64,000 bases of DNA, from positions 96,001 to 160,000 of IMG/VR virus record IMGVR_UViG_3300006750_000002. One strand, 5' to 3'. The translations under genes were made by a program, and so were the position numbers. Each line of letters starts with the position of its first letter. Within the stretch, counting starts at the first letter, position 1. The notes beneath the pieces were generated by a model, which worked only from the letters and a program-made list of their open reading frames with translations, was not told the origin of the DNA and searched no databases. Positions 3,961-64,000 of this stretch are shown in pieces. The DNA comes from a virus.

Positions 3961-6900
3961 ATGGGTACTTATTTTACTAATGATTTTGAATTAAATAAAT
4001 GTAGTAGTCCCGGCTATCCTTTTTTAGTGGGCTGGGACCAAACTAACACAGTAGAAAACGCGGTATCAAGTTGCAATGGTTCGATAACTAATCTTACTTT
4101 TTCAGGAGGTACTCCTCCTTATAGTTTTAAGTTAACGTATCCTGATATTGTTGTGGGACCACCAAAAACGGGAATCACCACTAATTTTGTGGGATTATGT
4201 GCTGGTCAATATACAGCACAAACAACTGATTCTTTATATTCTTCTACCACTAGTTTCATAACAATTTTACCTTTAACTGCGGGAACATTAACCGCTGGTG
4301 TGGTGGACACTAGTTGTGAGTCTAACATAAATGATTTTTGTACTATAGAGGTTAGTGGGTTCACACACTCATCTGATAATTTTACCTATCTTTTATATAA
4401 GGACAATAATCTTTATAATACCTACCAAGGAAGTAATGGGGAAGAAAATCACGTATTTTCTAATCTTACTCATGGTAACTATACTTTAACCGCGTATGAT
4501 GGGAATAGTGCGTCCTACTCAAGCCAAAAGACAGAGTTATGTACTTGTTTAAATGGGTACACCTTAGACTCATCTAATGTATTTGGATATACGGGACTTT
4601 CCACCACTAATATTGCAGAAGAATGGAGGCAATATAACTTATTTAATGACTATAAAATTATATTTAGAACCGTTTTGGGACCACACTTACTGCCTCCATT
4701 TAATACTAATCCAAACAATATTGTTTTTGAGTCTGGAATAGACCCAGATGGCACAATAAGGGTAGATGACCCTTATTGTTGGTTATACACGGGAAAAACG
4801 TCAACAAGGAAAACTGAAAATACTGTAGATTGGTATTTGGGAGCTTACAATTTGACTATGGAAGATGGTGACGATGTAGGTCCAGCGGGATATAGTCTAG
4901 CTGCGGATGTTGGAACATTTTACTACAACACCACCATAAACAAATTTGTAATTAACTGGAGGCCGTTCCTAACTCCTAACACTTGGATAACCATAAACGC
5001 TACCACTAATAGGGGTCAAAATGTTTTCCCTATTTCTAGTAGTGTGGGTCTTACAGGGGCAACTGCATATAACTCGATAGCTCTCGGAACTGTTAATGAA
5101 GTAGGGTATACCGTTACGGGTAGTACAATGGACGCGATTCAATGGGACCACATCGCTATGGGAGACGATACTTTAGAGCTGACGAACCCATGGCCTTTTA
5201 CCAATAGTAATATACCCATGTTATTTGCTAGTACGTGTAAGTATATGAATTACGTACATGAATTGTCTTTAGGGTCTTCCTTCGCTGATGACGACACTAT
5301 AGGTGTTATATTAGCTACTTTTATCGATAGTGATGGTTTATATGGTCCAAAAGGAACACCACACCAATTAACCCTACACTTTAATACTACGAGTACGGAC
5401 GGTGATAATGTAACTATTGAGTATAATTCCCAAGGAAATTCATCATATGCGTTTTCAATAGATGGTAGACAAACTACAAATTGTGGTTATGAGACCAAGA
5501 TGGGGTGTAGTACTGTCACGGGCATCACCCCTATAACGGGAATTAGTACCACTATATTAAGTAATAATATAGATAAATCTCCATTTAGTTATGGTAATTA
5601 TGATGGACAAGGTACGCCATATGTGAGAATAGAACGTTCTGGCAATTTGGGAGAAAAGTTTAATATCCAAATGACAGACACTATCACTAGTGTAAAAGTG
5701 GGGACCCCACAGACCTTTAATAGTGACTATGAGATAAACTTTAATTTATTAGATAAAAGTACCTGGGTCGGTAATGGTAGAAATGCTGCTTACTACGCGA
5801 ATGAAAAAGATTTATATAAGTTTCTAGGTTCCCAGAGTGTTGGGTATCACCAGGCTTCACAACCGGACTGTTATTTTTATAATATAAACTTTACAGGTAC
5901 CCAGAGTAATTATTTATTTAAGGATTTAAAGTTTGGTGGGAGTAGTACTTTACAATTTCCTTTAGGTAACCCAAACCTACAAGGGGTAGAAGCTTCTAAC
6001 AATCGGGAACTTAACTTTTATGCGTCATTGAGTGGTGGTGGGAACATTGGGGACCCCACGGTACCTAAAGTAAGTCCCCAAGCTAGTGTTAGGTTACAAA
6101 CCACCGAAATTCCTCTTATGACGACCACTGGGGGGACTAAGATTAGTGCGACAACAGACACATATGTTCTTTACAACCCACAAAGTTTTGTTAATAACCA
6201 AGTAGAGCCGTGTACAGAGTTTAATTTTACGTGGACTAAAAACACTACTGACCTTATTAATGGTAATATGGTCCCATATTATTCCGTACACCCTTATATT
6301 CCAGAACAAAAAGCTTTTTCTATGACGCCCTCGTTCACTAGGGTATTCGACAACCCTATGGGGAGGAAATTAATACTAACCTCAAATAACCAGGTAATTG
6401 GTGAAGGGGTAGAAGCAACTGACTGTATTAGATTGGGTAGTTTAGGTGAGGGTTCAGAATTCATTATAAAACCTAATTATATATTTAAAAATAAATTAAA
6501 TGATTTAAACTGTACCTCATGTAATTGTACAGCACCTCCTATAAGTGGGACTACAAAAGAAATTACAAATACGGAAGTGTGGTACGATACTTTTGACCCC
6601 CGTCCTGACCTAAAGATAGTAGGTAACGAAGATTCTACTGGCATATTTAGTTGGAATTGTGATGGTAAAATTAACACCAGAGATTATGGTTTGTATGATA
6701 GTACCACTGATTTTTACTTCTTAAAAGTCCCAGAAATAGGGACGGTGGATTTGGAAACTAATGATATTAGGTACGCTACTAATGATTCGTGTGGAAACCT
6801 ATATACCCAACAAGTAGAGGTACAAGAAGTATTTAATTCTGGGGGTACCAACATATTTAGTGGGACCACCACCTTACCTATTGTTATTTCAGGTACTCCG

Positions 6901-57972: not shown

Positions 57973-59049
57973 ATGAGAGTAAAATTAGAATATATTTGGT
58001 TGGACGGTAACGAACCTACTCAGAAACTAAGGAGTAAGACTAAAATTTGGGATTATTACCACATGACAGACCCTCTAGAATTAAATGGTAGGGTATTAGC
58101 ATATAACGGAAGAGTAATTCCTAGTCCAGATGAACTACCTAATTGGAATTTTGATGGGTCCTCCACTAACCAAGCTAAAGGTAATAAATCGGATTGTGTA
58201 TTAAAACCGGTTCGTATTGTAATGGACCCACAAAGGTTAGACGGTTTTTTAGTTATGTGTGAGGTAATGAATAGTGATGGTACACCACATAAAACTAATA
58301 AAAGACATAATTTAATTGACGACCCAGAGTATTGGTTTGGTTTCGAACAAGAATACATCTTAACTAAAACTGGTACCCCACTAGGGTTCCCTACTGAAGG
58401 TTACCCAAAACCACAAGGAGACTATTACTGTGGTTTAGGTTCAGAGAATGTGGTGGGTAGAGATATCGTAGAAGAACACTTACAGGTCTGTTTAGAAGCT
58501 AACCTTAATATTACAGGTACTAACGCAGAGGTAATGATTGGACAATGGGAATACCAAATACTCTCAAAAGGGGCTAAAAAAGCGAGTGATGAATTATGGT
58601 TATCTAGGTTTTTATTAATTAGACTAACTGAAAAGTATGACTTAAGAGTAGACTTTAAACCAAAACCTGTCGAGGGTGATTGGAATGGTTCTGGGTTGCA
58701 TGTGAATTTTTCTAGTGACTTAACAAGAGAAGTTGGAGGGGAAGAAATGTTTAATTCAATATGTGAAAAATTAGGTAACACACATAGTAAACATATGGAG
58801 GTTTATGGGGAAGAAAACAACAAAAGACTTACGGGTTTACACGAAACACAACACATTAATAAATTTAGTTATGGGGTTAGTGATAGAGGAGCTAGTATCC
58901 GAATACCACCTTCAACTGTAGAAAATGGTTGGAAGGGTTATTTAGAAGATAGAAGGCCGGCAAGTAACGCGGACCCATACCTATTGACGGGTACAATATA
59001 CGATACTCTATTAAAGGCAGAAGATAAATTTAGAACAATAGAAGTTTAA
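57973..59049 (+). CDS. glnII: Glutamine synthetase type II (GlnII), apparently intact
   Basis: EYIWLDG, FDGSST, GFEQEY, GTNAEVMIGQWEYQ, WNGSGLHVNFS, RLTGLHET, RGASIRIP, GYLEDRRPASN. Confidence 0.92.
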   Translation: MRVKLEYIWLDGNEPTQKLRSKTKIWDYYHMTDPLELNGRVLAYNGRVIPSPDELPNWNFDGSSTNQAKGNKSDCVLKPVRIVMDPQRLDGFLVMCEVMNSDGTPHKTNKRHNLIDDPEYWFGFEQEYILTKTGTPLGFPTEGYPKPQGDYYCGLGSENVVGRDIVEEHLQVCLEANLNITGTNAEVMIGQWEYQILSKGAKKASDELWLSRFLLIRLTEKYDLRVDFKPKPVEGDWNGSGLHVNFSSDLTREVGGEEMFNSICEKLGNTHSKHMEVYGEENNKRLTGLHETQHINKFSYGVSDRGASIRIPPSTVENGWKGYLEDRRPASNADPYLLTGTIYDTLLKAEDKFRTIEV

Positions 59050-59645: not shown

Positions 59646-59918
59646 ATGAAAACATTGTTATTATATTCTGAAGAGGGTTGTCCTTGGTGTACTCAGATGA
59701 AAGGTTTATTGGAAGAAAATAATATTAGGTTCTTAGTTAGAGATATTGAGAGATATGATAAGGAGTGGGAGAAGGTTAGTGAAGAAGCTAAAACAGAGTA
59801 CATCCCAACAGCTTGTATAGTAGACCACCAAGAAAAAACCAAAACTTATTTAACACCAGATGTCGACTTTGACGAGATTGAAGAAGGTGTGGAGAAAATT
59901 AAAATATTAATGAAATAA
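59646..59918 (+). CDS. Glutaredoxin-like protein (CPWC)
   Basis: LYSEEGCPWC...YIPTA. Confidence 0.75.
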   Translation: MKTLLLYSEEGCPWCTQMKGLLEENNIRFLVRDIERYDKEWEKVSEEAKTEYIPTACIVDHQEKTKTYLTPDVDFDEIEEGVEKIKILMK

Positions 59919-60520
59919 TGGGATTAGATATTTCATATTATAGTAATGTAAAACGTATACCTGACGAAGAAATTCCAGCGGGTGTGGAACCATTTAACCG
60001 AGCCTATGATGATTGGGTATATGGTTTTTATGATAAAGGGTATAATCTACATTATATTGACACAGATAGGGGTTTGTTTGGTGGCCACATGAAAGGGTTA
60101 GAACCTGGATGGTATAAAACCAAATCTGGAGATGAAGGTGGTTATCTTAGAGCGGGAAGTTATTCGGGATACAATGAGTGGAGAAGCGACCTTGCGTTAG
60201 CGGCAGGTTACCCTGGTGGGGCAGAAGAAGTTTGGAGTATGTCTGATAAACTCTACCAACCAGATAGCCCACCCTTTTTAGAATTAATTTATTTTTCTGA
60301 CTCTGATGGTATCATAGGTCCAGAGGTTAGTAAAAAACTTTATAATGATTTTGTTAAGTACGAAAATAATATTAAACAAGTAATAGATACATGGTACCTT
60401 AAATTTGACCCCAAAAAAGAGTTCGATACCGGTCAGTTCAAATGGTTCATTCACAAATATGAGGAATGGAAAGAGGCTTTTAAAACTGCGTCAGAAAACG
60501 GGTTTGTCTCCTTTCACTAA
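59918..60520 (+). CDS. Hypothetical phage protein
   Basis: 200 aa; RAGSYSGYNEWR and PFLELIYFSDSDGIIG motifs. Confidence 0.7.
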   Translation: MGLDISYYSNVKRIPDEEIPAGVEPFNRAYDDWVYGFYDKGYNLHYIDTDRGLFGGHMKGLEPGWYKTKSGDEGGYLRAGSYSGYNEWRSDLALAAGYPGGAEEVWSMSDKLYQPDSPPFLELIYFSDSDGIIGPEVSKKLYNDFVKYENNIKQVIDTWYLKFDPKKEFDTGQFKWFIHKYEEWKEAFKTASENGFVSFH

Positions 60521-60523
60521 AAC

Positions 60524-60552
60524 TTGACAATACACTTTATTTTTATTATTCT
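60524..60552 (+). promoter_or_regulatory. Sigma70-like promoter
   Basis: TTGACA-N17-TATTCT upstream of the ATG at 60572. Confidence 0.55.
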
Positions 60553-60571
60553 TCTATCAAACATTAAAATA

Positions 60572-61411
60572 ATGGTAGAAGAAACCCCGACCCTAGAACA
60601 AATCGCCGAATTAAATCCAGACGCTATAGTGTTAGACGGTCTACATGGAGCAATCGTCGGTATAGGGTATTCAAAAGATTTAGAACCTAGGTTGATTTAT
60701 TCAATAGAAACTATTATATTAACTCTTATGGGACGTGACAAAATGACAGAACAAGAAGCTATAGAATTTTATGACTATAATATTGCAGATGGGTATTTTG
60801 GAAAACATGGCCCCATATTTTTAGAAAAACCAACACAACAAAGTAGTGAGGTTATAGGAAAAGAAGGTGCCATAGAATTTAATAATTTACCTTCAAAATC
60901 TTCTACACCTACTATGACATATGCTGGAGTGGGTTCCAGAGTTACTCCAGCTTCTATATTAAAAGCTATGACAGACGTAGCTAAAATGCTTGAGTCTAAA
61001 GGATATACTTTAAATACAGGTAAAACATTTAGAAATAAAGAAGAAGGTGCAGATAAGGCATTTTCAGATGGTACAACTCAAAAGAATTTGTTTTCACCAG
61101 AAGTACAAGGTAGTAGAATAAAAGAACAAACTATAGCTAAAGAAATACATCCTGCACCCTCAAGATTAAAGGGTGGAGGCCTTAAACTTATGGCTAGAAA
61201 TACTAATCAAATATTTGGAGATAATTTAGATACTCCTGTTGATTTTGTATTATTCTACGCTGAAGAAACAGATAATCCATTAAGACCTAAAGGTGGAACA
61301 GGGCAAGCAGTAGAAATGGCTAGGCGTAAAGGTATTCCAACTATTAATATGACTGATACTAATTGGAAAAATCAATTAGAAAAAGTATTAGAATTACCCA
61401 ATAACAACTAA
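60572..61411 (+). CDS. Fusion of a small phage domain and a SLOG/DprA-like domain
   Basis: N-part DGLHGAIVG...YS...EAIEFYDYNI...GPIF; C-part YAGVGSR.TP...TG...GAD.AF...GGTGQAVEMARRKGIPTIN. Confidence 0.7.
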   Translation: MVEETPTLEQIAELNPDAIVLDGLHGAIVGIGYSKDLEPRLIYSIETIILTLMGRDKMTEQEAIEFYDYNIADGYFGKHGPIFLEKPTQQSSEVIGKEGAIEFNNLPSKSSTPTMTYAGVGSRVTPASILKAMTDVAKMLESKGYTLNTGKTFRNKEEGADKAFSDGTTQKNLFSPEVQGSRIKEQTIAKEIHPAPSRLKGGGLKLMARNTNQIFGDNLDTPVDFVLFYAEETDNPLRPKGGTGQAVEMARRKGIPTINMTDTNWKNQLEKVLELPNNN

Positions 61412-61438: not shown

Positions 61439-61466
61439 TTGACAGGGGGAATTTTTTTCCTATAAT
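61439..61466 (+). promoter_or_regulatory. Promoter of the TROVE-like gene/ncRNA unit
   Basis: TTGACA-N16-TATAAT. Confidence 0.65.
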
Positions 61467-61543: not shown

Positions 61544-62983
61544 ATGAATTTACGAGACTCACTTCAGACACAAGACACGGTAACCGAAAAGGGGATGACA
61601 ACTAACTCATCTACTTTAAATCACTGTGTAGACCTATTTTTTCAGATAGGTGCGATGAGAGGGATGGACAAGAAAAGACTTGTTTCTAAATTCTCAAAGG
61701 CATATAACGAAGACGCTCTAATGTCCATGAGAATTTTATTCTGGGCAAGAGACGTAAGAGGTGGTGCTGGTGAAAGACAAATTTTTAGAGATTTACTAGA
61801 TTGGTTATGTGAAAACCACAGTGATGTACTAAACAAAAATGTTCACTTAATTAGTGAATATGGAAGGTGGGATGATATTTTGACACTTGTTGGTACTACA
61901 AACTGTTGGTTGGAACCATTAGCTTTAATCAAAACCGCTTTGGAAAACAAAGATGGGTTATGTGCAAAGTGGATGCCAAGAAAAGGTGTGAAAGCAAATA
62001 CGATTAGAAAGTACATGAAAATGACACCTAAAGAATATCGTAAGATGGTAGTGGGGCTAACTAATGTGGTGGAAACTAGTATGTGTGCTAAGGAATGGGA
62101 GAATATTGATTATTCTAAATTACCATCCTTGGCATCGTCTAGGTACCAAAGAGCATTCCATAAGAATGATGGTGAAAGGTATGAGGAGTATGTAGAGTCT
62201 CTTAAAAAGGGAACTACTAAGATTAACAGTGGAGCAGTTTACCCTTACGACATCACTAAATCTGTTAAGTTCGGTGACGTGGAAGTTGCTAGTGAACAGT
62301 GGAAAGTTTTACCTAATTACATGGAAGGTTCTGAAGAAAGAATTCTCCCAGTGGTAGATGTTTCAGGTTCGATGGGTTGTCCCGTGGGAAATAACCCTAA
62401 CCTTACTTGTTTGGATGTCGCAATCTCATTAGGTTTATACATTTCGGAAAGAAACTTAGGACCCTTCCAAGATACGTTTGTAACGTTCTCGGCGAGACCG
62501 AAACTTCAAGTACTTAATGGTAACCTAAGGGATAGAATAGTGCAATTGTCACAAGCGGATTGGGGCATGACCACTAACCTAGAAGCTACCTTTCAACTGA
62601 TTCTAGGTCAAGCTGTTAAACACCAAGTTTCACAAGATGAAATGCCTACCAAAGTATTGATTCTCTCAGATATGGAATTTGATGAAGCTACAGCTAAGTC
62701 ATGGAGAACTTACGATAAAGTACCTCAGTGGAATCCAACCGCACAACAAATGATTAAAGGAATGTATGAAGAAGCTGGATACGAAATGCCAGATATCGTT
62801 TACTGGAACTTAAATGCCAGAAATGATAATTTCCCAACTTCAGTTAATGAAATGGGAACAGCGTTAGTGTCTGGTTTCTCTCCTTCAATCATGAAAAGTA
62901 TTTTAACATGTGAGGAGTTTACTCCTTACAAAATAATGATGGAGACTATCGACTCTGGTCGATACGAACCAATCAGGGTCTGA
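61544..62983 (+). CDS. DUF2828-family TROVE/Ro60-like protein with a C-terminal vWA domain
   Basis: CVDLFF, ILFWARDVRGGAGER, YGRWDD, AKWMPR, SLASSRY; MIDAS VVDVSGSM and ILSDMEFD; IVYWNL and VSGFSPS. Confidence 0.85.
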   Translation: MNLRDSLQTQDTVTEKGMTTNSSTLNHCVDLFFQIGAMRGMDKKRLVSKFSKAYNEDALMSMRILFWARDVRGGAGERQIFRDLLDWLCENHSDVLNKNVHLISEYGRWDDILTLVGTTNCWLEPLALIKTALENKDGLCAKWMPRKGVKANTIRKYMKMTPKEYRKMVVGLTNVVETSMCAKEWENIDYSKLPSLASSRYQRAFHKNDGERYEEYVESLKKGTTKINSGAVYPYDITKSVKFGDVEVASEQWKVLPNYMEGSEERILPVVDVSGSMGCPVGNNPNLTCLDVAISLGLYISERNLGPFQDTFVTFSARPKLQVLNGNLRDRIVQLSQADWGMTTNLEATFQLILGQAVKHQVSQDEMPTKVLILSDMEFDEATAKSWRTYDKVPQWNPTAQQMIKGMYEEAGYEMPDIVYWNLNARNDNFPTSVNEMGTALVSGFSPSIMKSILTCEEFTPYKIMMETIDSGRYEPIRV

Positions 62984-63243
62984 TGGGTAGACCAAAGAAT
63001 CTCTTCGGCAAAATTTAACTATAAATCAAAACCAGAGAGAGAGGTGGAAGTTACTCCCCACCTTGTTGAATAACAAAAAAAGGGGTATTTAGTCTCAGGA
63101 GTCCTAAGTAAAAAAAGAGTCCAAACATGATTCTGACTACCCAGAAGATTTGACAACTATCGTGACATGTTCACGTTTTTATAGAAAGGAAGGTTACAGC
63201 AATCTTTAATTGTAACCAAATCAAACAACGACCCCCTTCCTGA
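62984..63243 (+). ncRNA. Putative structured ncRNA(s): two homologous stem-CRGCAA...stem-GA units
   Basis: No ORF in the track here. Stems TGGGTAG/CTACCCA, AGAATC/GATTCT, AGGTGG/CCACCT, TTGTT/AACAA, CGTGA/TCACG, AGGAAGG/CCTTCCT and GGTTACA/TGTAACC; lies between the TROVE-like stop and a terminator. Confidence 0.65.
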
Positions 63244-63250
63244 ATTTATT

Positions 63251-63279
63251 AAAACCCCAGTGACGACTGGGGTTTTTTT
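63251..63279 (+). terminator. Intrinsic terminator
   Basis: AAAACCCCAGT-GACG-ACTGGGGTTTTTTT. Confidence 0.85.
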
Positions 63280-63280
63280 A

Positions 63281-63312
63281 TTTGCATATATAAAGTATTT
63301 TCCCTATATTTG
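63281..63312 (+). promoter_or_regulatory. Bacteroidota sigma-A promoter
   Basis: TTTG-N20-TATATTTG. Confidence 0.75.
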
Positions 63313-63332: not shown

Positions 63333-64000
63333 ATGCCAAAGATATTTGAAGTAGGGGGTTGTGTTAGAGATGAGATACTAGGTGTCCACACAAATGACAT
63401 TGATTTCACTTTTGTACTAGATGATATTAATCAGACAGTAGATGAAGGTTGGGAACAAATGTTGGGCCACTTAAAATCCACAGGATTTAAAATATTTTTG
63501 GAGACAAAAGATTGTTTTACTGTAAGAGCCAAATTCCCTAAAGGACATAAACACGAAGGTCTAGTTGCAGATTTTGTAATGGCAAGAAAAGAAGTGGGCG
63601 TGATTCCTGGTACTAGAAAACCTGTTCTTAAGTTGGGCACCCTAGAGGATGATTTGACTCGAAGAGATTTTACACTAAACGCTTTAGCCAAAGATTTAGA
63701 TGGTAACATCATCGATTTATTTGATGGGCAACTTCATTTGATTTTAAATTTGTTGATTACTCCTTTGGACCCAGTTACCACCTTTTTAGACGACCCTCTT
63801 CGTATGATTCGCGCACTTAGATTTCACATTACCAGAGGTTTTCAAATCCATGAAACTGTATGGGAAGCAATTTTCACTCCAGGCCTTATAGATAAGTTGG
63901 AAGAAGTGGTTTCACAAGAACGAATCCAAGGAGAAGTTATGAAAATGATGAAACACGACACAGTAAAAACTTTACGATTGTTTTCTAAGATTGATAAAGC
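63333..64000 (+). CDS. cca: Class II tRNA nucleotidyltransferase (CCA-adding-type), truncated by the window end
   Basis: Hand-translated MPKIFEVGGCVRDEILG..NDIDF, EDDLTRRDFTLNALA, DDPLRMIRALRF and VSQERI. Absent from the ORF track because there is no stop in the window. Confidence 0.9.
   Translation, partial: MPKIFEVGGCVRDEILGVHTNDIDFTFVLDDINQTVDEGWEQMLGHLKSTGFKIFLETKDCFTVRAKFPKGHKHEGLVADFVMARKEVGVIPGTRKPVLKLGTLEDDLTRRDFTLNALAKDLDGNIIDLFDGQLHLILNLLITPLDPVTTFLDDPLRMIRALRFHITRGFQIHETVWEAIFTPGLIDKLEEVVSQERIQGEVMKMMKHDTVKTLRLFSKIDK

What the first reader, a model, noticed from the sequence alone, without database searches (positions are those of the whole stretch)
62984..63243. Two homologous structured RNA units directly after the Ro60/TROVE-like gene: a candidate novel ribonucleoprotein
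Seen: unit A is aaAGAATC(62996-63001)-tctt-CGGCAA...GATTCT(63129-63134)-GA and unit B is aaAGGAAGG(63187-63193)-tta-CAGCAA...CCTTCCT(63235-63241)-GA. Both have different but perfectly complementary closing stems (covariation-like), a CRGCAA just inside the 5' strand and CTGA at the 3' end. They also share internal sequence: A cggcaa-aa-tttaa-c-t-a-taa-atcaaa; B cagcaa-tc-tttaa-t-t-g-taa-ccaa-atcaaa. Unit A is further enclosed by TGGGTAG/CTACCCA and carries extra hairpins (AGGTGG/CCACCT, TTGTT/AACAA, TATTTAG/CTAAGTA). A CGTGA/TCACG-T5 hairpin separates the units. In B, GGTTACA/TGTAACC competes with the closing stem. There is no internal promoter, and a strong terminator follows. Known: Ro60/Rsr TROVE-vWA proteins bind Y RNAs encoded next to them and act in RNA decay and repair. 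Inference: these are cognate ligands of a DUF2828-type protein forming a new Y-like RNA class (no canonical GGUCCGA/UUGAC pairing or T-loop), possibly processed from a tandem array.
Basis: partly seen in the sequence, partly recalled or inferred. Interest (0 to 1): 0.85.

Follow-up and report, generated by a model that had tools for sequence, protein, structure and literature searches.

The report
Partner RNAs of a Ro60-like phage protein
Right after a phage gene for a ring-shaped, Ro60-like protein (DUF2828) lie two small RNA genes that share a conserved "handle"; the same handle sits beside this protein's gene in many phages and microbial assemblies, is in no RNA catalogue, and closely resembles the unexplained Class I RNAs of social amoebae.

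Summary
Units A (62984-63143) and B (63187-63242) share a handle: a 6-7 bp closing stem, 3-4 free bases, C-N-G-C-A-A, and a G after the 3' strand.

- A covariance model built from short units found the handle beside DUF2828 genes in IMG/VR phage loci (72 of 73 hits on the gene's strand). In independent bacterial and archaeal MAG loci, 36 of 37 hits (model R1) and 39 of 39 (model R2) were on the gene's strand.
- The closing stem covaries: 98% of cells paired, 85 double changes against 18 in shuffles.
- The encoded protein is predicted to fold like Ro60; the top 13 PDB matches are all Ro60.
- No Rfam family reaches threshold, and the Y-RNA motifs and T-loop are absent.
- The best genome-wide match of Rfam's Dictyostelium Class I RNA model is unit B, at 14 bits against a 41.5-bit cut-off. 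The design is the same: stem, UUACAGCAAU, loop, stem, UG.
- The family also sits in the tRNA array after gp130 of E. coli phage Bas63, a gene reported to counter the Ppl defence.

Most likely reading (about 0.65): these RNAs dock on the DUF2828 ring to form a Ro60/Y-RNA-like particle made early in infection. Binding and expression are untested. This scan has already flagged the same pairing in at least 203 other genomes.

The parts
61439..61466 (+). Consensus sigma-70-type promoter (TTGACA-16-TATAAT) 77 nt upstream of the DUF2828 start codon; the likely early promoter of the whole unit
   Evidence: 12 of 12 match. A match of at least 11 of 12 is kept in 12 of the 13 clade loci checked, window included (L016 has 10 of 12), and at the same distance from the start codon in six of them.
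61544..62983 (+). DUF2828 + DUF7788 protein gene (479 aa), predicted Ro60-like HEAT-repeat ring plus vWA domain with an intact DxSxS metal-site motif
   Evidence: Pfam PF11443 4e-36 and PF25043 9e-52. AlphaFold2 model pLDDT 78.8, pTM 0.75. The top 13 Foldseek PDB hits are all Ro60, E 3e-9 to 4e-5, aligned over the full length. D272, S274 and S276 are invariant in 40 homologues.
62984..63143 (+). Unit A, the long handle RNA. Outer helix 62984-62990/63137-63143; inner helix 62996-63001/63129-63134; free UCUU + CGGCAA 63002-63011; G 63135 after the 3' strand. Cargo: a likely H-type pseudoknot (S1 63042-63047:63058-63063, S2 63052-63057:63082-63087) and a hairpin 63086-63092:63104-63110
   Evidence: Both closing helices are 95.1% paired, with 30 double changes against 12.3 in shuffles (0 of 500) on MAFFT alignment A4. 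It is the second-best hit of handle model R2 in the whole window on both strands (16.1 bits). Pseudoknot stem S2 has 3 of 6 covarying pairs.
63161..63180 (+). Small hairpin plus U-run between the units; a weak terminator or a processing site
   Evidence: Terminator-like site. The stem sequence changes with compensation among relatives (CGTGAC/GTCACG, CGCGG/CCGC, TTCGCC/GGCGA).
63187..63242 (+). Unit B, the short handle RNA (about 56 nt). 7-bp stem 63187-63193/63235-63241; free UUA + CAGCAA 63194-63202; G-poor A-rich loop 63203-63234; G 63242
   Evidence: R1 70.3 bits and R2 54.2 bits; it is the only significant hit in the 190.9-kb genome. It is also the best hit of Rfam RF01414 in the genome, at 14.1 bits, below the cut-off. 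The loop has 2 G in 32 nt.
63251..63283 (+). Strong intrinsic terminator that ends the unit
   Evidence: 11-bp stem with 5 G-C pairs, followed by a T-run.

Best explanation
Units A and B are two small RNA genes of a large, uncatalogued family. The family is defined by a 'handle': a 6-7 bp stem joining the RNA's two ends (5' strand A-G-R...), 3-4 unpaired bases, the unpaired motif C-N-G-C-A-A, a G-poor stretch, and an invariant G after the 3' strand. They are made together with the DUF2828 gene from a strong host-type (early) promoter. They are then released by the internal hairpin/terminator and by host RNases. The handle is the docking site for the Ro60-fold ring protein encoded just upstream. 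This parallels the way a 5'-strand motif next to the closing stem of Y RNAs docks on Ro60. The variable cargo gives each particle its target or partner: an A-rich single-stranded loop in B, and a pseudoknot plus hairpin in A. The likely partners are host RNA-decay or tRNA-handling enzymes, or a nucleic-acid-targeting defence. Shown by computation: the conserved structured RNA, its linkage to the gene, and the protein fold. Inferred: binding, processing and biological role.
For: Handle conservation and linkage:
- 72 of 73 R1 hits lie on the gene's strand and cluster within a few hundred nt of DUF2828 genes in IMG/VR loci.
- In independent MAG loci, 36 of 37 R1 hits (29 within 500 nt of the gene; binomial p = 6e-10) and 39 of 39 R2 hits are on the gene's strand.
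- The closing stem is 98.4% paired with 85 double-change cells against 18.3 in shuffles (0 of 500); slid controls reach at most 52%.
- Invariant positions are G6, C15, G17 and C18 in 55 of 55 hits and the 3' G in 54 of 55; the loop is nearly G-free.

Reverse test:
- Of 82 viral hits to a 14-base handle pattern, 35 have a perfect 7-bp partner plus G, against 7.0 +/- 2.4 in controls.
- 13 of those 35 have DUF2828 in the held stretch, all on the same strand. Of the 21 other contigs, 8 carry it elsewhere on the contig, including 3 of 5 near-complete genomes.

Protein: Ro60 fold, plus a profile hit to phage phiLo Ro60 at the vWA start, E = 0.0017.

Transcription: a conserved consensus promoter lies upstream, unit A abuts the stop codon, and a terminator follows B.

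Precedent: bacterial and phage Y RNAs lie within 4 kb of Ro60 on the same strand and carry a 5' motif (PMC4201824). Phage phiLo Ro60 binds two adjacent Y-like RNAs and host PNPase (PMC12135203).

Model phage: Bas63 gp130 is a DUF2828 homologue. It is reported to counter the Ppl defence (PMC11482910). Handle RNAs lie in the tRNA array after it.
Against: There is no expression or binding data for any member. The handle is not the known Ro60-binding motif: no GNCGAA or GGUCCGA is present. The binding claim therefore rests on co-location and analogy. Folding energies are only mildly better than shuffles. Only 23-26 of 79 MAG loci show a detectable handle within 3 kb. Two complete provirus records carry a stem-bearing handle but no DUF2828 gene. 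Unit A alone scores only E = 0.43 with the general model. Many loci are close relatives, so hit counts overstate the number of independent events.
Confidence: 0.65

Rival explanations
1. The units are cis-acting parts of the DUF2828 messenger (3' or 5' untranslated elements). They would stabilise the mRNA or let the protein feed back on its own synthesis, rather than being free-standing RNAs that work in trans.
For: Unit A starts at the base after the stop codon, and in L006 and L011 its outer helix includes the stop codon. In distant relatives units sit 31-42 nt upstream of the start codon. One promoter and one strong terminator bracket gene and RNAs.
Against: Copies number one to several per locus and lie on either side of the gene. 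Some lie 1-8 kb away or within tRNA arrays. Some enclose tRNA-like cargo. L016 has lost unit A but kept B. The look-alike Class I RNAs are independent, abundant 42-65 nt transcripts (PMC7919456).
Confidence: 0.15
2. The RNAs are real but are not ligands of DUF2828. They would work with a host factor (for example a ribonuclease, Hfq or a tRNA enzyme) and share a locus with DUF2828 only because both belong to the same early, tRNA-rich expression module.
For: Two complete proviruses have a handle but no DUF2828 gene. Most of the distant Clostridia-type DUF2828 loci show no detectable handle within 3 kb. In Dictyostelium the only protein shown to bind a Class I RNA directly is an RRM protein, Rnp1A/CIBP (PMC7919456).
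Against: The link holds across phage lineages with otherwise different neighbours; for example the CCA gene is kept in only 2 loci. It also holds across bacterial and archaeal MAG assemblies. Orientation is nearly always shared. The Ro60 fold has exactly this kind of adjacent RNA partner in known systems (PMC4201824, PMC12135203).
Confidence: 0.15
3. There is no functional RNA. The stems would be chance palindromes, terminator-like DNA, or repeat or recombination sites.
For: Modest folding z-scores; AT-rich intergenic DNA forms short stems easily (background).
Against: Strand-specific invariant motif; compensatory changes in many lineages; no U-run after the unit stems; significant model hits in independent loci, almost none on the opposite strand.
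Confidence: 0.03

Closest known systems
Ro60 (Rsr/TROVE) with Y RNAs: bacterial and phage YrlA/YrlB (PMC4201824) and Thermus phage phiLo Ro60 with Yrl1/Yrl2 (PMC12135203)
   Same: A ring-shaped HEAT + vWA protein (predicted here). One or more small RNAs are encoded within a few kb on the same strand. The RNA ends pair into a closing stem with a conserved motif on the 5' side, and the interior is modular. Unit A has a long two-part stem like a Y RNA. Some relatives carry tRNA-like cargo.
   Different: The protein matches Pfam DUF2828/DUF7788 and no other Pfam family, so not a TROVE-domain family; sequence identity to Ro60 is 12-18%. The RNA motif is an unpaired C-N-G-C-A-A, not GNCGAA or GGUCCGA. 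No Rfam Y-RNA family is hit. The window's units have no T-loop or tRNA-like arms. Short members are only about 55 nt.
Dictyostelium Class I RNAs (Rfam RF01414; PMC7919456)
   Same: A short stem joins the 5' and 3' ends. An unpaired motif sits next to the 5' strand: the Rfam consensus reads CUUACAGCAAU and unit B reads UUACAGCAAU. The loop is variable and A-rich, C residues precede the 3' strand, the tail is UG, the length is about 56 nt, and the first stem G is conserved. Unit B is the top RF01414 hit in the whole phage genome.
   Different: The score of 14.1 bits is far below the 41.5-bit cut-off (E about 1). The Dictyostelium upstream promoter element (DUSE) cannot apply to a phage. Class I RNAs were reported as unique to dictyostelids and are not linked to any Ro60-like protein in the papers I could read. 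Unit A is far longer and departs at motif position 3.
Bas63 (Escherichia phage JohannRWettstein) gp130, PhageMaP preprint PMC11482910
   Same: bas63_0130 is a DUF2828 homologue of the window's gene. The preprint calls it Ro60-like, shows that it counters the Ppl defence, and guesses that Y RNAs hide among the downstream tRNAs.
   Different: The preprint names no RNA. Here the candidates are specific handle RNAs in the gaps between the tRNA genes (L168 4605-4679, 4772-4837, 5227-5302). The window's phage has no tRNA genes in this window.

Membership tests
Bacterial/phage Y RNA (YrlA/YrlB type) | Encoded within about 4 kb of, and on the same strand as, the Ro60-type gene | tested here: met
   Units A and B start 1 and 204 nt after the stop codon on the same strand. 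The partner gene is DUF2828, not a Pfam TROVE gene.
Bacterial/phage Y RNA (YrlA/YrlB type) | GNCGAAN0-1G (or vertebrate GGUCCGA) motif near the 5' end | tested here: not met
   No CGAA, GNCGAA or GGTCCGA anywhere in 62984-63250.
Bacterial/phage Y RNA (YrlA/YrlB type) | tRNA-like T-arm/D-arm module | tested here: not met
   No T-loop pattern, no ARAGORN call, no Rfam tRNA or Y-RNA hit. A relative, L080 4415-4510, does enclose an Rfam tRNA hit of 55.7 bits that ARAGORN does not call.
Bacterial/phage Y RNA (YrlA/YrlB type) | Bound by the Ro60-type protein | not testable with these tools
   No RNA-protein prediction or experiment is available here.
Dictyostelium Class I RNA (RF01414) | Rfam gathering score of 41.5 bits | tested here: not met
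   Unit B scores 14.1 bits, E about 1-1.8. No RF01414 hit at gathering in 20 related loci.
Dictyostelium Class I RNA (RF01414) | Short stem joining the ends, plus an 11-nt unpaired motif with T3, C6, C9, A10, A11 (PMC7919456) | tested here: met
   Unit B reads GGUUACAGCAA and matches all five positions. Unit A reads CUCUUCGGCAA and matches four of five, with C at position 3.
Dictyostelium Class I RNA (RF01414) | Length 42-65 nt, invariant 5' G, variable interior | tested here: inconclusive
   Unit B is about 56 nt and its stem G is invariant in 55 of 55 family hits. Unit A is 139-160 nt. The true RNA ends are unknown.
Dictyostelium Class I RNA (RF01414) | DUSE promoter element about 60 nt upstream | not tested
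   This is a eukaryotic promoter element and does not apply to a phage.
Ro60 / TROVE protein | HEAT-repeat ring plus vWA domain with a MIDAS motif | tested here: met
   The predicted model aligns over its full length to 13 Ro60 structures, TM 0.37-0.62. DxSxS is invariant. This rests on a prediction, not a solved structure.
Ro60 / TROVE protein | Match to the Pfam TROVE domain | tested here: not met
   Only PF11443 and PF25043 are reported at E <= 0.01. The profile hit to PDB TROVE proteins covers only the vWA start, E = 0.0017.
DUF2828/DUF7788 family | Pfam PF11443 + PF25043 above their curated cut-offs | tested here: met
   125.1 and 175.9 bits against cut-offs of 29 and 27.1.

The most novel reading that the evidence does not exclude
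The phage handle RNAs and the Class I RNAs of Dictyostelium are one family. DUF2828 proteins would be their common, so far unrecognised partner. That would make a second, Ro60-like ribonucleoprotein lineage running through phages, giant viruses, bacteria and eukaryotes, used in phages as an early anti-defence or RNA-control device. A concrete lead exists. A pull-down with Class I RNA DdR-21 recovered DDB_G0281243, a protein of unknown function (bioRxiv 10.1101/2020.04.05.026054). I could not find out whether it is a DUF2828 protein.
Probability: 0.35. Interest if true: 0.9.

Novelty: new variant of a known kind. Interest (0 to 1): 0.8.

Why it matters
DUF2828 is a very large family of unknown function. 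A conserved RNA partner would give the family a working model: a Ro60/Y-RNA-like particle with its own recognition code. It would also add a widespread RNA family to phage genomes, where these stretches are read as empty spacers or mis-called as tiny genes. It offers a testable explanation for how Bas63 gp130 counters the Ppl defence. Finally, it would question the view that Class I RNAs are unique to social amoebae and point to a candidate protein partner for them. Because members exist in E. coli K-12 phages, all of this can be tested directly.

Tried and rejected
- **Rfam.** At gathering, nothing in the window and only tRNAs in 20 related loci. At E <= 10 around the units, only terminator-driven or weak chance matches.
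- **tRNA search.** ARAGORN found no tRNA or tmRNA in the window.
- **Thermodynamic folding.** Z-scores of -1.4 to -2.4, not decisive.
- **MAFFT realignment of short units.** It misplaced the 3' strands of divergent rows (A2), so alignment A1 was used.
- **Loose stem-plus-motif scan.** High background; only the 0-250 nt downstream bin stood out (107 against about 30).
- **CCA-enzyme linkage.** The neighbour is conserved only in L004 and L014, so it was rejected as part of a conserved module.
- **Own promoter for unit B.** There is no convincing sigma-70 spacing. A T4-late-like TATAAATA box occurs only in L006. A conserved TATA-rich box follows the hairpin but remains unexplained.
- **TTGTT/AACAA and GGTTACA/TGTAACC hairpins.** Not conserved.
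- **Identity of Dictyostelium DDB_G0281243.** Paper search, the preprint's supplements and two protein database searches gave no names. The ESM Atlas returned only viral DUF2828 clusters.
- **Literature.** Searches for DUF2828, the motif string, and Ro60-like phage RNAs found no description of this RNA family.

Full report
**Setting.** The window is bases 96001-160000 of a 190.9-kb IMG/VR phage contig. Gene 61544-62983 (+) encodes a 479-aa protein matching Pfam DUF2828 and DUF7788. The next gene (63333 onward) has a poly(A) polymerase/CCA-type head domain. The 349-nt gap between them holds the finding.

**The observation.**
- Unit A has an outer helix (62984-62990 with 63137-63143) and an inner helix (62996-63001 with 63129-63134). 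These are followed by free UCUU and CGGCAA.
- Unit B has a 7-bp stem (63187-63193 with 63235-63241), followed by free UUA and CAGCAA.
- Each 3' strand is followed by G.
- A 5-bp hairpin with a U-run lies between the units, and a strong terminator follows B.
- Minimum-energy folding is only mildly better than shuffles, with z from -1.4 to -2.4. The case therefore rests on comparison with relatives.

**Comparative evidence.**
- A search of IMG/VR gave 80 loci with homologues at 46-90% identity. Their flanks show the same design again and again with different, mutually complementary stems. Examples are AGGAAGG/CCTTCCT, TAGGCTTC/GAAGCCTG, AGGTTTCTT/AAGAAACCT, GGGATAAT/ATTATCCC and TTGGATCA/TGATCCAG.
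- Covariance model R1 was built from 16 short units. It found 73 matches at E <= 1 in 513 kb, 72 of them on the gene's strand. They lie just downstream of the gene in close relatives and just upstream in relatives at 46-51% identity.
- On the aligned matches the stem is 98.4% paired, with 85 double-sided changes against 18.3 in shuffles (0 of 500). Slid controls reach at most 52%. That alignment is fitted to the model, so these counts lean towards the structure.
- The logo shows G6, C15, G17 and C18 in 55 of 55 matches, A19 in 54, the G after the 3' strand in 54, and a loop start almost free of G.
- In 79 independent loci from bacterial and archaeal MAG assemblies (34-62% identity), 36 of 37 R1 matches lie on the gene's strand (29 of the 37 within 500 nt of the gene). 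All 39 matches of the broader model R2 do too.
- Only 23-26 of these 79 loci have a detectable unit within 3 kb.

**Reverse test.** I scanned IMG/VR for a 14-base handle pattern.
- 82 hits were examined. 35 have a perfect 7-bp partner plus G, against 7.0 +/- 2.4 when stems are swapped between sites.
- 13 of the 35 have DUF2828 in the short stretch held, all on the same strand.
- Of the 21 other contigs, 8 carry the gene elsewhere, including 3 of 5 near-complete genomes.
- Two complete proviruses have none.

**Unit A.**
- On a plain MAFFT alignment of 13 long units, both closing helices hold: 95.1% paired, 30 double changes against 12.3 in shuffles (0 of 500).
- The inner GAAU/AUUC core is invariant, while the outer helix changes freely.
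- With model R2 and filters off, the two best hits in the whole 64-kb window on both strands are unit B (54.2 bits) and unit A (16.1 bits, E = 0.43, despite a 96-nt insert).
Its loop (UACUCC, 63052-63057) pairs with GGGGUA (63082-63087), and 3 of those 6 pairs covary among eight relatives. That makes an H-type pseudoknot likely.
- The cargo is modular. L012 and L015 lack the third hairpin and L018 has others. L016 has lost the whole of unit A except the outer helix, yet keeps B.

**The protein.**
- An AlphaFold2 model built from 40 homologues (pLDDT 78.8, pTM 0.75) has Ro60 structures as its top 13 PDB matches. These are phage phiLo, Deinococcus Rsr, Xenopus and human Ro60, at E 3e-9 to 4e-5 and TM up to 0.62 over the full length. 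Plain vWA domains follow.
- A sequence profile reaches the phiLo TROVE protein only at the vWA start, E = 0.0017.
- The metal-site motif DxSxS is invariant.

**Expression signals.** A 12-of-12 sigma-70 promoter lies 77 nt upstream of the start codon. A match of at least 11 of 12 is kept in 12 of the 13 clade loci checked, window included. Unit A begins at the base after the stop codon. The inter-unit hairpin changes with compensation and is followed by a conserved TATA-rich box. I infer one early transcription unit whose RNAs are released by partial termination and processing. An extra start site for B cannot be excluded.

**Comparison with known systems.**
- No Rfam family reaches its threshold.
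- Y-RNA hallmarks are absent: no GNCGAA or GGUCCGA motif and no T-loop (PMC4201824).
- Following a lead from earlier notes of this scan, I tested Rfam's Dictyostelium Class I RNA model. Its best hit in the whole 190.9-kb genome is unit B, but at 14.1 bits against a 41.5-bit cut-off.
- The printed alignment shows the same design. The consensus reads GaUcuC-CUUACAGCAAU...cCCUu-GagAuC-UG, and unit B reads GGAAGG-UUACAGCAAU...CCCC-CUUCC-UG. Unit B also meets all five near-invariant motif positions listed in PMC7919456.
- So it works and looks like a Class I RNA but fails the membership score.
- That paper's preprint lists DDB_G0281243, a protein of unknown function, among four proteins pulled down with a Class I RNA. 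I could not determine its family.

**A tractable model phage.** bas63_0130 of Escherichia phage JohannRWettstein (Bas63) is a DUF2828 homologue. A preprint reports that gp130 is Ro60-like and counters the Ppl defence, and it guesses that Y RNAs hide among the downstream tRNAs. I find handle RNAs in the gaps of that tRNA array, all on the gene's strand:
- L168 4772-4837, 26.6 bits, E = 3.6e-5.
- L168 4605-4679 and 5227-5302, both weaker.

**The CCA gene.** The neighbouring CCA-type gene is conserved only in the two closest loci. It is probably not part of the system.

**Verdict.**
- The RNA family and its linkage to DUF2828 are real (about 0.95).
- That the RNAs are ligands of the protein is the best reading (about 0.65) but is untested.
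- A cis-regulatory role or a host partner remain possible.
- I found no paper describing the family.
- The scan itself has flagged the same pairing in at least 203 other genomes.

Noticed in passing
window 63333-64000: Gene with a poly(A) polymerase/CCA-adding head domain directly after the RNA units. The adjacency is kept only in the two closest loci (L004, L014), so it is probably a lineage-specific neighbour.
   Followed up: partly
window 57973-59049: Glutamine-synthetase-like gene (Gln-synt_N + Gln-synt_C) in a phage, conserved at 59-89% identity upstream of DUF2828 in 14 related loci.
   Followed up: partly
window 59918-60520 and 60524-61411: Two ORFs (200 and 295 aa) with no Pfam match, just upstream of the DUF2828 promoter. 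The 200-aa one keeps its position in 13 related loci.
   Followed up: partly
L080 4415-4510 (also L079 4518-4652): A handle unit (GGATCGTT...CCGCAA...AGCGATCC-TG) encloses a tRNA-like insert that Rfam scores as tRNA (55.7 bits) but ARAGORN does not call. This is cargo of the YrlA kind on the new handle.
   Followed up: partly
L168 5227-5302 (Bas63, MZ501086 82690-82765): A handle RNA candidate overlaps the annotated minus-strand 50-codon CDS bas63_0137. Small 'hypothetical protein' calls inside this tRNA array may be mis-annotations of RNA genes.
   Followed up: no
G009 = IMGVR_UViG_3300013126_000010, 114281-116772: The DUF2828 gene appears in two pieces about 1.1 kb apart on one strand. This could be an inserted element, an intron or a broken gene.
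   Followed up: no
L019 / L088: The same 83,794-bp contig appears both as an IMG/VR virus and as a contig of a Prochlorococcus single-cell genome (QCKH01000004.1). This is a host clue for this marine phage group.
   Followed up: no
G001 (L169) and G006 (L196): Two provirus records rated 100% and 93% complete carry a stem-bearing handle hit but no DUF2828 gene. Either these are handle RNAs without the protein or they are false positives.
   Followed up: no
L014 about 4610-4650: The inter-unit hairpin carries an insertion of about 30 nt in its loop, while the flanking stem is kept.
   Followed up: no
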